Source: the human T2T-CHM13v2.0 reference genome, Homo sapiens. From it: 64,000 nucleotides of DNA. A model generated the notes under the pieces. That model saw nothing but the letters and a program-made list of their open reading frames with translations, did not search any database and had not been told where the DNA came from. Location: the NCBI RefSeq assembly GCF_009914755.1, contig NC_060927.1. One strand, written 5' to 3'. The position numbers and the translations under genes are program-made. Shown piece after piece: positions 25,692 through 30,116 of the stretch; the stretch's first letter is position 1, and each line of letters opens with the position of its first letter.

Positions 25692-28600
25692 TATATGTAA
25701 ATGAATTTATGTATATTTAATTATATGATATAATTATATATTTAATAAATATCTGTTCCATAATATAATTAATAAAATTAACATATTTAATTATATAAAA
25801 TGCATATTTACAATTTAATTATATGAATACTGTAGACTAGTTTTTATATATAGTATACATTGCAGTTTATTGTTATTTTTTGGATTTTTATTTTTCAGTT
25901 GATACATAATAATTGCACATACTTATTGGAAGCTGGTTTTTCTTTAGGAATGGGAATGGAGGAGTGTCTGTGTGAGTCTATAGGGGCTCTGCTTTGGGCA
26001 AGCAAGTTAGGATGGGATGGAGTGGAAAGAGTTGGAGGATTTTACTATTTTTATTTCATAGGTTTATGTATAATTTGATTTTTACCTCAAACATGGATTA
26101 ATTTTGTAATAAAAATCACTCAAAATATTTAAAAATACAAAAAAATAGTCACTGCTGATACGCAGTTCTTAACGTAATTACTAGGAGAAAGGGAAGCACC
26201 ACCTAAATCTAGGTAATCTTGGAGCATCAGCAGGAGACATTGAGAAGCACCATTTGTCCACATTCACACCAGTCTCAGAGAAATGCTCTCCATGCCCAGA
26301 AAACCACTGTTTCTAAACGATGGTTTGAGAAATGTGTTAAATAATCATTATGTACTTTTTAACCTGTATAAACATCTTGAAAATTATCTCCCTTTTCTAA
26401 CTGTACATTTCAAATGCTCTTGGATATATTGAGTTCTAAAAATGAAACTTAAATTCCTAACGTGTGAGAAAAAATGTTCAATGTGTTGGGAAAATGTTCA
26501 AGTTTGAATTAAGTAAAATTCCTGAGGTGTTTATTTTTATTGTTTTTATTTGCTGGATAATTGTCTTTTCCATTTTTATGCATGTGGGTATATAAGGATA
26601 AAAATGCATTCAAACTGTTAAATTTAAAATTAAATATTAATGACTTCAACAAAGGTAATGGCAAACTCTAGTGAAAAACATCCTTTGTGATTGTAGATTA
26701 GAGTGCCTTAAATTGACTATAAATTCTAAATCATAATCTCCCATTCCTATGGCTATAATCGGTATAGAGAATATTAAAGGGTCTCCCAGTGATTGTTGTT
26801 AAATTATTGAATCATAGTTTTTCTCAGCTTAATAATTAAAAATATTTCAAATTCAAACTTAGTTTTGTAGATACTAAGTATTAAACCATTTGGTGATAAC
26901 TAGACCTTGCTTAGCTACATTAAAAAAATTGACTTAGTCATTTTAGTTATGACGGTGAGGTGTAATTTATCAAAAGCACAATGAGAGGTTATCAAACTCT
27001 CATTTCAGTAAAAGATAGAGGAACATTACCCTCAAGAGATAAATCTTTCATTAAACTTTACAAAGACCTTAAGCAGTCTCTGCCCCATTTATCATTTCTA
27101 GTCTTTCAGAATGTACCAGCTGCCTGTGTTTAGACTGCAGCACAGGGCAGACAGCCAAAAGGGGGTTGATAGCTGGTGAACAGATGAAACTTCTGTTCCA
27201 TATTTTACATGTTCATTCACCTTAGAAAATTATTTTAAAACCAGCCATGTTTTGGGCTAAATTTTGGTATTGTACAAAACTATAGAGTACATGTTAGTAT
27301 TATTTTTTGAAATACGGTGAAAATTTCTTTATCATCAAAATATATTTTTTAGAAAAAATAAAATACAATTTCTCCTACATTTTCATAAAGTAATTATCTT
27401 GCTTGATGTTAGCATTCTGACTCATGTAAAATGTTATTTTCTTAAGAGTACTCTTAAGGACAATAATTATGTGATCATCTCAACATATGCACAAAAGGTG
27501 TTTGAAAAAAATTCAAGATGCTTTTATGATAAAACTTTCAAAATATTATGTATAGAAGGAATTTACCTCAACATAATAAATGATATACATGAAATGCCCA
27601 CAGCTAGCATCGTACTTGATAGTGAAAATCTTTCAGCTTTTCTCCTAAGATCAAGAACAGGACAAGGGTACCCACTTTTACCATTTCTATTCAACATTAT
27701 ACTGGACCTTCAAGCCAGAGCAATTAGATAAGAAAAAGAAACAAAAGACATTCAGATTGGAAAGGAAGAAGTAAAACAGTCTTTTTTTATAGATAACACT
27801 ATCTTATACACAGAATACCTTAAAGACTCTACCAAAAGCTGTTGCCTAATAAATGAATTCAGTAGAGTTGCAGGATGCAAAATCAACATATAAAAATCAG
27901 TGGGAATTTTATACTACAACAATGAACTATGTAACAAAGAATTAAGAAAACAATCCCATTTATGTTAGCATCAGAAATAACAAAATATTTAGGAATAAAT
28001 TTAACCAAGGAGATGAGCGATCTCTGTACTGAAAACTAGAAAATACTGATGAAAAAAATTGAAGACACAAACAAATGAAAAGATATCCTGTACTCATGGA
28101 TTGGGAGGCTTAATATTGGTGCAATGTTTGTACTTCCCAAAATAATTCAAAATTTAAGGCAATCCCTATGAAAATCTCAATGACTTTTTTACAGAAAAAA
28201 CAATTTTGAAATTAATATGGAATCGCAAAAGACCATAAATAGCCAAACCGATCATGAGAAAGCACAAAAATGAAGGCATCACAGTTCCTGATTTTAAAGT
28301 ATATTTCAAAGCTACAGTAATCAAAACTCTGTAACACTGGCATAAAGACAATATAGACCAATGGGATAGAGTTCAGAGCCCCAAAATAAATCTACATATC
28401 TATGGTTCACCAATTTAAAAAAATGTGCCACGAATACACAATGAGGAAAAGACAGTCTTTTCAATATATCATTCTGGAAAAACTAAGTATCTATATGGAG
28501 AAGAATTAAATCAAACCCTTATTTTACACCAAAATATATAAGAAACTCATACAACTAAATAGCGAAAACACAAATATACAATTAAAAAATGGACAAAAGA

Positions 28601-29099
28601 CCTGAAGAGGCATTTTTTTCAAAGAAGACATACAAATGGCCAATTTGTGTATGAAAAGATGTTTAACATCATAGTCAGCAGAAAAATGCAAGTCAAAACC
28701 ACAATGAGATATCATATCACAACTGTTAGCAATTATAAAATTATAATTTTATAAAAGATTATTTAAAAAGGCAAAAGATAACAAGCCTTGGCAAGGATGT
28801 AGAGAAAGGGAACCCTTATACACAGTTGGTGGGAATGTAAATTGGTACAAGCATCATGGGAAAAAATATGGAGTTTTATCGAAAAAAATAAGAATTAAAC
28901 TACCATATGACCCAGCAATACCACTTCTGGCTATATATCCAAAGAAAATAAAATCGCTATCTCAAAGAGATAGTTTCATTCTCATGTTGATTGCAACATT
29001 ATTCACAATAGCCAAGATATGATAATAAGCTAAGCGTCTGTCAACAGATGGCACACACACAAAATGGAATATTATTTAGTCTTAAAAAAAGAAAAAAAC

Positions 29100-29379
29100 G
29101 GCGCACCGTGCGCGAGCCGAAGCAGGGCGAGGCATTGCCTCACCTGGGAAGCGCAAGGGGTCAGGGAGTTCCCTTTCCGAGTCAAAGAAAGGGGTGACGG
29201 ACGCACCTGGAAAATCGGGTCACTCCCACCCGAATATTGCGCTTTTCAGACCGGCTTAAAAAACAGCTGCTGAATAAACTATTTATTGTTTCTTACTCCT
29301 TTGATTTGTATGTAATTAATTTTGGAGCTTATTTAATTTAATAAAGCGCCAAACATTTAATAATTAAAAAAAAAAAAAG
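29100..29379 (+). mobile_element. Young chimeric retro-insertion: 165-bp L1 5'UTR segment + 101-bp non-L1 tail + poly(A), with TSD
   Basis: Perfect 13-bp TSD AAAAGAAAAAAAC (29087-29099 and 29380-29392); CTT|AAAA endonuclease-type site; AATAAA at 29273 and 29340; poly(A) from 29366. Confidence 0.9.
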
Positions 29380-29703
29380 AAAAGAAAAAAACTTCTACTA
29401 TTTGTAACAACATGAATAAACCTGGAGGTCATTATGCTGGGTGAAATAAGCCAAACACAGAAAGAGAAATACTTTTTAATCTCCTCTGTGTGGAATCTAA
29501 AAAAAAAAGTTGAACTCACAGGAACAGAGAATAGAATGGTAGTTACCAAGGACTGTGGGGTAGGGGAAATGGGGAGATATTGGTAAAAGGGTACAAATTT
29601 TCAGTTATAAGGTAAATTCTGGAGACCTAAGTACAGCATGGGAACTACAGTTAATGCATTGAATACTTGAAATTTATGAAGAGAGATCTCAAGTGTTCCC
29701 ACT

Positions 29704-29713
29704 ACACACATAT

Positions 29714-29757
<44 letters not shown>
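29704..29757. repeat. (CA)n microsatellite
   Basis: About 20 uninterrupted CA units plus degenerate flank. Confidence 0.95.
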
Positions 29758-29760
<3 letters not shown>

Positions 29761-30116
29761 ACAACATGAGGTGGTGAATATCTTAATTAGCTTGACTGTG
29801 GTAATTATTTCATAATGTATACGTATATTAAAAAAATGATACTTCAATAAAGCTGGAGGGAGTAAAGAATAGAAATAAAACCACAACAAAACACAATAGA
29901 ATGGAAAATAAATTGTGGTAAATTCACCAATAAATTACATACTCATTGCACATAGCAATGAGAATGACCAAACTAGAACTACACCGCAAAATATCGATAA
30001 ATCCCACAAATACAATGTTGTGGGGAAAAATATAGACCAAAAAAAGAGTATTGTGATTCCATTTACACAATGTTGGAAACCAACAAGATTAACGTATGGT
30101 GTAAGAAGTAAGGATA

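What the first reader, a model, noticed from the sequence alone, without database searches (positions are those of the whole stretch)
29087..29392. Young ~280-bp chimeric retro-insertion (L1 5'UTR segment + orphan tail + poly(A)): candidate non-autonomous L1-mobilised element
Seen: an ancient L1M 3'UTR (...tagtcttaaaaaaagaaaaaaac | ttctactatttgtaacaacatg...) is split by an insert. The insert has a perfect 13-bp TSD (AAAAGAAAAAAAC), a TT|AAAA site and a poly(A), which are the hallmarks of L1 target-primed reverse transcription. Bases 29100-29264 are sense L1PA2/L1HS-type 5'UTR (roughly L1 nt 150-315) with 14 intact CpGs, followed directly by 101 bp of non-L1 AT-rich sequence. Established: ordinary 5'-truncated L1 copies keep the 3' end and lose the 5'UTR. 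This insert does the opposite, with no ORF or 3'UTR sequence. Inference: it was copied in trans from a short polyadenylated RNA made by a source locus in which an L1 promoter fragment is fused to a genomic terminator, i.e. a Pol II SINE-like 'mini-L1' that may have sibling copies.
Basis: partly seen in the sequence, partly recalled or inferred. Interest (0 to 1): 0.88.

Follow-up and report, generated by a model that had tools for sequence, protein, structure and literature searches.

The report
One-off L1–ARPC5L chimeric retrocopy
The 280-bp insert is a single retro-insertion that joins the last 98 bases of the ARPC5L messenger RNA to an internal piece of a young L1 5'UTR, so it is a rare by-product of L1 reverse transcription and not the founder or member of a new mobile-element family.

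Summary
Window 29100-29379 is a 280-bp insert with a perfect 13-bp target-site duplication, an A-rich nick site and a 13-A tail, and it splits an ancient L1.

Bases 29101-29267 are sense L1 5'UTR, about nt 155-321. They are 100% identical to two genomic L1s and 99% to 37 more, and all 14 CpGs are intact.

The "orphan tail" (29268-29365) is not orphan. It is the last 98 nt of the 3'UTR of the chr9 ARPC5 paralogue (ARPC5L; name recalled). It ends at that gene's distal AATAAA/cleavage site, where the genome has no A-run.

The junction 29-mer occurs once in the genome at up to 3 mismatches. The tail occurs only here and at the parent gene. No L1 5' sequence lies within 30 kb of that gene.

Best reading: one target-primed reverse transcription event started on ARPC5L mRNA and switched template to L1 RNA. 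This is an atypical member of the known chimeric-retrocopy class.

One curiosity: the captured L1 piece coincides with a predicted self-contained folding domain of the 5'UTR.

Interest is low.

The parts
29087..29099 (+). 5' copy of the target-site duplication (AAAAGAAAAAAAC)
   Evidence: Perfect 13-nt repeat of 29380-29392; 16 nt at 94% (D1). Present once in 8 of 8 collinear relatives of the old L1.
29100..29100 (+). One extra G at the 5' junction, from neither the target nor L1
   Evidence: Genomic L1 copies have C, not G, before GCGCACCG. The one search matches start at query base 2.
29101..29267 (+). Sense fragment of a young L1 5'UTR, about nt 155-321, truncated at both ends
   Evidence: 100% identical to 2 genomic L1s and 99% to 37 others, out of 40 scored from 2239 candidates. 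A 5'-end motif lies 142 nt upstream in 32 of 46 locus records. 14 CpG.
29268..29365 (+). Last 98 nt of the ARPC5L mRNA 3'UTR (distal poly(A) isoform)
   Evidence: 94% identity (2 substitutions plus a 4-nt indel) to G000:C9:137075943-137076044 +, its only other copy in the genome. The parent locus is identified by the last coding exon and a P16-Arc exon 2.5 kb upstream on the same strand.
29340..29345 (+). AATAAA poly(A) signal, 20 nt before the tail
   Evidence: Read. The same signal lies at the same distance from the end of homology in the chr9 gene.
29366..29379 (+). Poly(A) tail (13 A plus G), not encoded at the parent gene
   Evidence: At chr9 the homology is followed by GATCTAGG, not by A's.
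29380..29392 (+). 3' copy of the target-site duplication
28800..29086 (+). Left part of the interrupted ancient L1 (ORF2 C-terminal remnant; only this portion was examined)
   Evidence: 77-83% identical to many old L1 copies. Relative L066 aligns to ORF2p 1133-1275.
29393..29700 (+). Right part of the same ancient L1 (end of ORF2 and 3' region; only this portion was examined)
   Evidence: Collinear with the left flank in 8 of 11 relatives.

Best explanation
A single L1-driven retro-insertion produced a two-part chimera.

Proposed sequence of events:
1. L1 endonuclease nicked an A-rich site inside an ancient L1.
2. Reverse transcription was primed on the poly(A) tail of an ARPC5L mRNA (distal poly(A) isoform), recruited in trans.
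3. After copying 98 nt, the reverse transcriptase left that template and continued on an L1 RNA at about nt 321 of its 5'UTR.
4. It copied back to about nt 155 and stopped.
5. The cDNA was joined to the target with one extra G and a 13-16-bp target-site duplication.

Shown: the two parental origins, the RNA origin of the tail, the single TSD pair, the uniqueness of the junction and the absence of any fused source locus in this genome.

Inferred: that the join was made by template switching during reverse transcription, and the order of the templates, which follows from RT polarity.

The element has no evident function and is not a family. The donor L1 was of the youngest primate type: a short ~907-nt 5'UTR, and nearest copies about 2% apart pairwise. 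The event is therefore probably a few million years old, within wide limits.
For: - TSD, A-rich site and poly(A).
- Insertion into a contiguous old L1: 8 of 11 relatives are collinear and 0 of 11 carry the insert; the target is single-copy in 8 of 8.
- L1 part: 100% identical to 2 genomic L1s and 99% to 37 more of the 40 scored. All 46 other L1 locus records (43 places) holding the 30-nt seed continue as L1 past the breakpoint.
- Tail: the only other copy in the genome is chr9:137075943-137076044 + (2 of 2 candidates scored at E<=10). It lies 791 nt downstream of a stop codon ending ALAVGGLGSIIRVLTARKTV*. A PF04699 P16-Arc exon lies on the same strand at 80.1 bits; the only other genomic hit is on chr1.
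- RNA origin of the tail: homology ends 20 nt after AATAAA and the genome there has no A-run.
- Junction: unique at up to 3 mismatches (1 forward, 0 reverse; reversed-pattern control 0/0).
- No L1 5'UTR or ORF1 sequence in chr9:137056000-137085999.
- The junction reads ...ACAGC|TGCTGAAT..., with 0 nt of shared microhomology, no GT on the L1 side and no AG on the ARPC5L side, so it is not a splice.
- Both parts are in the same orientation and joined directly, as in published L1 chimeras (passages of PMC2104539; PMC4476161).
Against: - One locus cannot separate a switch of template during reverse transcription from a chimeric RNA made beforehand.
- The published defining list for such chimeras says the 5' part is a full-length RNA copy (PMC2104539). 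Here it is an internal piece cut at both ends.
- Doucet et al. conclude that template switching is largely restricted to U6/U6atac acceptors (PMC4476161).
- There is no microhomology at the junction.
- The ARPC5L 3'UTR end shows no unusual predicted structure that could explain a pause at the switch point (z -0.09).
- Only one human assembly was searched. A fused source allele elsewhere in the population, or one since lost, is not excluded.
Confidence: 0.62

Rival explanations
1. The chimeric RNA existed before reverse transcription. An L1 5'UTR RNA fragment ending near nt 321 was joined to a 5'-cleaved ARPC5L 3' fragment, by RNA ligation (as shown for U6/L1 by RtcB) or by end-to-end template jumping between two RNA fragments. 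L1 then copied it in one pass.
For: - The RNA-ligation route is published for U6/L1 chimeras (PMC6789731, abstract in the listing; cited in PMC13174262).
- The L1 piece matches a predicted autonomous folding domain. Folded alone it gives -69.6 kcal/mol, z -3.45, with 0 of 200 shuffles folding as well.
- In the 906-nt 5'UTR of 12 L1 copies it ranks 1st to 7th of 740 same-length windows for fewest boundary-crossing pairs. Only 0.02-0.8% of all 100-300-nt windows do as well. This is what a structure-protected RNA fragment would look like.
- There is one extra G at the 5' end.
- Terai et al. proposed truncated mRNAs as templates for short pseudogenes (PMC2831318, abstract).
Against: - No other locus breaks at L1 nt 321 (1 match, self).
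- No other locus starts at nt 155 (2 matches, self and a full-length L1 variant), so there is no sign of a recurrent fragment. These patterns need exact flanking matches and catch only about a quarter of possible breaks.
- The structure is predicted only.
- The described LINE-1 ribozyme belongs to L1PA7-9 5'UTRs, not this type (PMC11620745 passages).
- Rfam finds nothing here.
Confidence: 0.22
2. One reading: a source locus with an L1 promoter fragment fused to a terminator makes a short polyadenylated RNA that L1 mobilises repeatedly (a mini-L1 family).
For: The architecture (promoter-side L1 sequence plus a poly(A) signal) could in principle be transcribed if it were full length at the 5' end. 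Only one assembly was searched.
Against: - The junction is unique.
- The tail's only other copy is the ARPC5L 3'UTR end, with unique non-L1 sequence upstream.
- There is no L1 5' sequence within 30 kb.
- This copy lacks L1 nt 1-154.
- A 3'-truncated L1 inside a 3'UTR would need an extra deletion, because L1 copies are truncated at the 5' end (established knowledge).
Confidence: 0.04
3. DNA-level joining at the insertion site. A short ARPC5L cDNA and an unrelated L1 cDNA or DNA fragment were ligated during repair of the TPRT intermediate (filler-DNA capture). Alternatively, two nested insertions occurred.
For: There is no microhomology and one extra base at the 5' end, as end-joining can give.
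Against: - A single TSD pair encloses both parts.
- The L1 part has no poly(A) or TSD of its own.
- Both parts are in the same orientation and abut without filler.
Confidence: 0.08
4. Spliced or read-through fusion transcript between an L1 and ARPC5L (cis- or trans-splicing), later retrotransposed.
For: Splice-mediated mRNA/L1 chimeras are described (PMC13174262 passages).
Against: - The L1 side continues GCACC and the ARPC5L side is preceded by GTGTT, so there is no GT...AG.
- The break lies in the middle of the terminal exon's 3'UTR.
- No L1 lies in or near the gene.
Confidence: 0.03

Closest known systems
L1-mediated bipartite chimeric retrocopies made by RT template switching (Buzdin/Gogvadze 'chimeric retrogenes'; U6/L1, U3/L1, U5/L1, U6/pseudogene chimeras)
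   Same: - Two different transcripts are fused directly in the same orientation.
- The 3' part is a 5'-truncated, polyadenylated RNA copy.
- One TSD pair and an L1 endonuclease-type site.
- A trans-mobilised mRNA can be the first template.
(Passages of PMC2104539, and PMC4476161.)
   Different: - The second template is L1 itself, entered inside its 5'UTR. The usual case is a small nuclear RNA copied to its 5' end, with L1's 3' end as the first template.
- The 5' part is truncated at both ends.
- The recent catalogue by Law & Burns looks only upstream of L1 3' fragments (PMC13174262, Introduction and passages), so it could not list this type.
- Buzdin et al. 2003 could not be opened, so I cannot say whether an L1-5'UTR/mRNA chimera is listed there.
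Short processed pseudogenes from mRNA 3' ends (Terai et al. 2010, PMC2831318; abstract seen)
   Same: The ARPC5L part is a <=300-bp copy of the mRNA 3' end with poly(A) and TSD.
   Different: An L1 5'UTR piece sits between the 5' TSD and the mRNA fragment.
Composite non-autonomous retrotransposons (SVA) and L1 5'-transduction or spliced L1 chimeras
   Same: Mosaic of L1-mobilised sequence parts.
   Different: - Those are families, or carry the L1 body and 3' end.
- This is a single copy with no L1 ORF or 3' end, no sibling and no splice junction.

Membership tests
L1 target-primed retro-insertion | Target-site duplication flanking the whole insert | tested here: met
   13-nt perfect repeat (16 nt at 94%) at 29087-29099 / 29380-29392. 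The target is single-copy in 8 of 8 relatives.
L1 target-primed retro-insertion | 3' poly(A) not encoded at the parent locus | tested here: met
   13 A after 29365. The chr9 gene continues GATCTAGG.
L1 target-primed retro-insertion | Endonuclease site of TT/AAAA type | tested here: inconclusive
   The site is CTT-AAAAAAA-G. The exact nick is ambiguous because the tail merges with the target's A-run. It is TT|AAAA only if the TSD is read as 16 nt.
Bipartite chimeric retrocopy (template-switch class; features as listed in PMC2104539) | 5' part is a full-length copy of a cellular RNA | tested here: not met
   The L1 part is nt ~155-321 of a ~6-kb RNA, cut at both ends. Doucet et al. report 3'-truncated U5/U3 parts, so the rule is not absolute.
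Bipartite chimeric retrocopy (template-switch class) | 3' part is a 5'-truncated copy of a polyadenylated RNA | tested here: met
   Last 98 nt of the ARPC5L 3'UTR plus poly(A).
Bipartite chimeric retrocopy (template-switch class) | Parts joined directly, in the same transcriptional orientation, inside one pair of direct repeats | tested here: met
   Alignment A1.
   The junction 29-mer gives 1 match at up to 3 mismatches. The tail occurs in 2 places, self and the parent gene. The break-at-321 pattern gives 1 match. One assembly only.
   The parent of the tail has unique sequence upstream and no L1 5' sequence in 30 kb.
Spliced L1 chimera (cis/trans-splicing) | Junction at splice donor and acceptor sites | tested here: not met
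   No GT after L1 nt 321 and no AG before the ARPC5L breakpoint.
ARPC5L (chr9 ARPC5 paralogue) as parent gene of the tail | The tail lies at the 3' end of that gene's terminal exon, in the same strand | tested here: met
   A PF04699 exon at chr9:137073285-137073473 + (80.1 bits; cut-off 21.9) and the terminal coding exon lie upstream on the same strand. The gene symbol is recalled, not returned by any tool.

The most novel reading that the evidence does not exclude
The L1 piece (nt ~155-321) is not an arbitrary stretch. It is a discrete, structure-bounded sub-RNA of the L1 5'UTR, such as a nuclease- or Microprocessor-trimmed domain, present in germline cells. It was captured by end-to-end template jumping or ligation onto a degraded mRNA 3' fragment. 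This would make the locus a fossil record of an L1 5'UTR processing product. It would also be the first example of a 'reverse-polarity' chimera class (cellular mRNA first, L1 5'UTR second) that existing catalogues cannot see by design.
Probability: 0.1. Interest if true: 0.5.

Novelty: new member of a known kind. Interest (0 to 1): 0.22.

Why it matters
It removes a high-scoring candidate for a new mobile-element family: the "orphan" tail has a parent gene and the junction is unique.

Its remaining value is as a natural example of two points:
- L1 reverse transcriptase working in trans on a cellular mRNA can still pick up L1's own RNA, and can do so inside the 5'UTR.
- Catalogues that look only upstream of L1 3' ends will miss such events.

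The match between the captured segment and a predicted folding domain gives a concrete, cheap hypothesis about what sets switch and stop points. It rests on one locus and on predicted structure only.

Tried and rejected
- Rfam scan of 28500-30000 at E<=1: only two weak chance-level hits outside the insert (mir-6130 at 21.9 bits against a gathering score of 117; SCARNA7 at 20.2 against 65).
- Pfam on the old-L1 flank peptide (37 aa) and on a 152-aa open relative: 0 families each. The PDB sequence search then identified ORF2p.
- RNA fold of the ARPC5L 3'UTR end, looking for an RT pause structure at the switch point: z -0.09, nothing special.
- LINE-1 self-cleaving ribozyme as the source of the nt-321 end: it belongs to L1PA7-9-type 5'UTRs (PMC11620745 passages), so rejected.
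- Microprocessor cleavage of the L1 5'UTR: the review I could read gives no coordinates (PMC4203495 passages), so it remains a lead only.
- Recurrent breakpoints at L1 nt 321 or nt 155: none beyond this locus.
- Splicing: rejected on the junction sequence.
- Literature search for ARPC5L + retrotransposition + chimeric: 0 papers.
- Buzdin et al. 2003 is not held.
- Earlier findings of this scan were not open to the session.
- Another ARPC5L retrocopy (chr17:6254587-6255052, 88%) uses the proximal poly(A) site and does not contain the tail. It is not a sibling.

Full report
**What is in the sequence**

Window 29087-29099 and 29380-29392 are the same 13 bases, AAAAGAAAAAAAC. The repeat finder extends the pair to 16 nt at 94%. 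Between them lie 280 bases:
- one G (29100);
- 167 bases of GC-rich sequence (29101-29267);
- 98 bases of AT-rich sequence (29268-29365);
- 13 A plus a G (29366-29379).

The upstream flank ends CTT-AAAAAAA-G. The A-run merges with the tail, so the endonuclease nick can be placed anywhere between TT|AAAAAAA and three bases further in. Every position is of the A-rich L1 type.

**The insert interrupts an older element**

I searched the genome with the left flank and fetched 11 related old-L1 copies. I then compared both flanks and the insert with them.
- 8 of 11 carry the left and right flanks on the same strand, in order, and 22-90 nt apart.
- One (L056) has them on opposite strands.
- Two (L061, L064) lack the right flank.
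- None of the 11 has any match to the insert.

In the 8 collinear copies the target sequence is present once.

One relative with a 152-aa open frame across the site aligns to residues 1133-1275 of the 1275-residue human L1 ORF2 protein at E 2.3e-52. The target is therefore the C-terminal coding remnant of ORF2, about 35-40 codons before the stop. Pfam found nothing for these peptides.

**The L1 part**

A search with window 29100-29267 scored 40 of 2239 candidates. Besides the locus itself, two L1 copies match bases 2-168 at 100% (chr3:89427669-89427835 and chr3:82390551-82390717) and 37 match at 99%.

All 46 non-self locus records that hold a 30-nt seed from the fragment (43 distinct places) continue past window position 29267 as L1 (...AAAAC[A/G]GC GCACCACGAG...). 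The window turns into TGCTGAATAAAC. One record, L013, lacked the exact seed and was not examined.

A short motif near the L1 5' end (recalled) gave these distances from the fragment start:
- 142 nt upstream in 32 of 46 records;
- 128-141 nt in 3 records;
- no exact motif in 11 records.

This places the fragment at about L1 nt 155-321.

The ORF1 start motif (recalled) lies 575-586 nt after the breakpoint in 26 of 29 copies, and at exactly 585 nt in 19. That gives a 5'UTR of about 907 nt.

Over the next 1,400 nt, which played no part in the search, these 29 copies differ pairwise by a median 2.15% (1.50% outside CpG). By recalled subfamily ages this is the youngest primate L1 tier (L1PA2-like).

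The fragment keeps 14 CpG, with observed/expected 0.96. It differs from the majority of its nearest relatives at one CpG position at most.

**The tail is not orphan**

A 105-base query covering the tail found two places in the 3.1-Gb assembly at E<=10: itself, and chr9:137075943-137076044 on the plus strand at 94% identity.

At chr9 the homology starts after ...GAGAGGTGTT and ends 20 nt after an AATAAA. The genome there continues GATCTAGG, with no A-run. The 13 A in the window were therefore added to an RNA.

Upstream on the same strand lie:
- a terminal coding exon reading ALAVGGLGSIIRVLTARKTV-stop, 791 nt before the end of homology;
- an exon matching Pfam P16-Arc (PF04699) at 80.1 bits.

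The only other genomic P16-Arc match is on chr1. The gene is thus the chr9 paralogue of ARPC5, which I recall as ARPC5L. No tool returned the name.

The tail differs from the gene by two C/T differences and a 4-nt indel in a TTAA repeat. At one of the two differences the insert holds a CpG and the gene a TpG.

A second, older ARPC5L retrocopy on chr17 (88% identity) ends at the proximal poly(A) signal and lacks this tail.

**Uniqueness and source locus**

- The junction 29-mer occurs once at up to 3 mismatches (1 forward, 0 reverse; reversed-pattern control 0/0).
- A degenerate pattern for any L1 copy that stops being L1 exactly at this position also finds only this locus.
- The 30 kb around the parent gene (chr9:137056000-137085999, five overlapping loci) has no match to the L1 fragment or to 1.8 kb of L1 5' sequence.

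This genome therefore holds no fused source locus and no sibling. Other human haplotypes and ape genomes could not be searched with the tools at hand.

**The junction**

The junction reads L1 ...AAAACAGC | TGCTGAATAAAC... ARPC5L.
- The two parents share no base across the break.
- L1 continues GCACC (no GT).
- ARPC5L is preceded by GTGTT (no AG).

Splicing is therefore rejected. Both parts are sense to each other and abut without filler, and only one pair of duplications encloses them. A single event is much more likely than nested insertions.

**Mechanism**

RT copies from the 3' end, so the ARPC5L mRNA was the first template and L1 RNA the second. The best-supported model is a template switch during target-primed reverse transcription.

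This class of event is described for L1. It is said to give direct, same-sense fusions inside one pair of repeats, with either L1 RNA or a trans-mobilised mRNA as the first template (passages of PMC2104539; PMC4476161; Introduction of PMC13174262).

This locus departs from the usual picture in three ways:
- the acceptor is L1's own 5'UTR, not U6;
- it was entered internally;
- it was not copied to its 5' end.

These depart from the rule "5' part full length" listed in PMC2104539. Doucet et al. state that switching is largely restricted to U6/U6atac, although they report internally initiated U5 and U3 parts.

A chimeric RNA made beforehand, by ligation as shown for U6/L1 (PMC6789731, abstract only), cannot be excluded from one locus.

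**A structural coincidence**

- Folded alone, the 167-nt L1 piece gives -69.6 kcal/mol against -55.4 +/- 4.1 for 200 shuffles (z -3.45; none folds as well).
- In the minimum-energy fold of the 906-nt 5'UTR of a genomic copy identical in this stretch, 56 pairs lie inside nt 155-321 and only 2 cross its borders. Only 6 of 740 windows of that length do as well.
- With ensemble pair probabilities in 12 copies, the fragment ranks 1st to 7th of 740 windows. It lies in the lowest 0.02-0.8% of all 100-300-nt windows.

The predicted domain is closed by a helix between about nt 147-154 and 320-328, so the entry and exit points of the RT lie at the two sides of one helix.

This suggests that RNA structure set both ends. 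Either it guided the switch and the stop, or the acceptor was a structure-protected fragment.

The evidence is limited:
- it is prediction only, and was tested after I had seen the first fold;
- no other locus shares either end;
- the ARPC5L side shows no special structure (z -0.09);
- the known LINE-1 ribozyme belongs to older 5'UTR types;
- the Microprocessor review I could read gives no cleavage coordinates.

**Age**

The L1 part differs from the majority of its relatives by at most one CpG change in 167 nt. The tail differs from the gene by two substitutions in 98 nt, and changes on the gene's side count too. That is about 1% over 265 nt, with a wide error. Together with the L1 type, it suggests an age of a few million years. 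It cannot show whether the insert is human-specific or polymorphic.

**Comparison with what is known, and verdict**

It works like the published L1 chimeric retrocopies and like a short processed pseudogene of ARPC5L. It fails one listed feature of the former (a full-length 5' part) and both tested defining features of a mobile family.

I file it as a new, atypical member of a known kind. The catalogue of Law & Burns (Cell Genomics 2026; abstract, Introduction and passages seen) looks only upstream of L1 3' fragments, so it would not list it. Buzdin et al. 2003 could not be opened, so prior description of this partner combination is not excluded. A search for ARPC5L with retrotransposition and chimeric returned 0 papers.

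Interest is low. The finding is real and neatly explained, and the exciting reading (a new SINE-like family) is not supported.

Noticed in passing
window 29101-29267 (and L026 etc., L1 nt ~155-321): The captured L1 5'UTR segment coincides with a predicted autonomous RNA folding domain. Folded alone it has z -3.45. It ranks 1st-7th of 740 same-length windows for fewest boundary-crossing pairs in 12 L1 copies. The domain is closed by a predicted helix at nt ~147-154 / 320-328.
   Followed up: partly
L068 1500-1975 (G000:C17:6254587-6255052): An older (88%) 5'-truncated ARPC5L retrocopy ends at the proximal poly(A) signal, followed by a 9-A run. It sits directly after the A-rich 3' end of an L1, so ARPC5L has at least two poly(A) sites recorded by retrocopies.
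   Followed up: partly
window 29347-29348 vs L002 1584-1585: At one of the two tail differences the retrocopy holds CpG where the present ARPC5L 3'UTR holds TpG. The gene, not the copy, probably changed after the event, or the donor allele differed.
   Followed up: no
window 29716-29757: A (CA)n microsatellite of about 21 units lies near the 3' end of the interrupted ancient L1. The weak SCARNA7 Rfam hit (20.2 bits against a gathering score of 65) overlaps it and is a low-complexity artefact.
   Followed up: no
window 29268-29325: This is the only stretch of the insert left unmasked in NCBI's repeat file (hub note). It corresponds to the first 58 nt of the ARPC5L-derived tail, which fits its being unique gene sequence and not a repeat.
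   Followed up: yes
L074 (G000:C11:25097320-25097347, minus strand): A full-length L1 with a variant just before nt 155 (…GGATGCA|GCGCACC…) mimics a truncation at that point in the pattern search. It is an ordinary full-length copy.
   Followed up: yes
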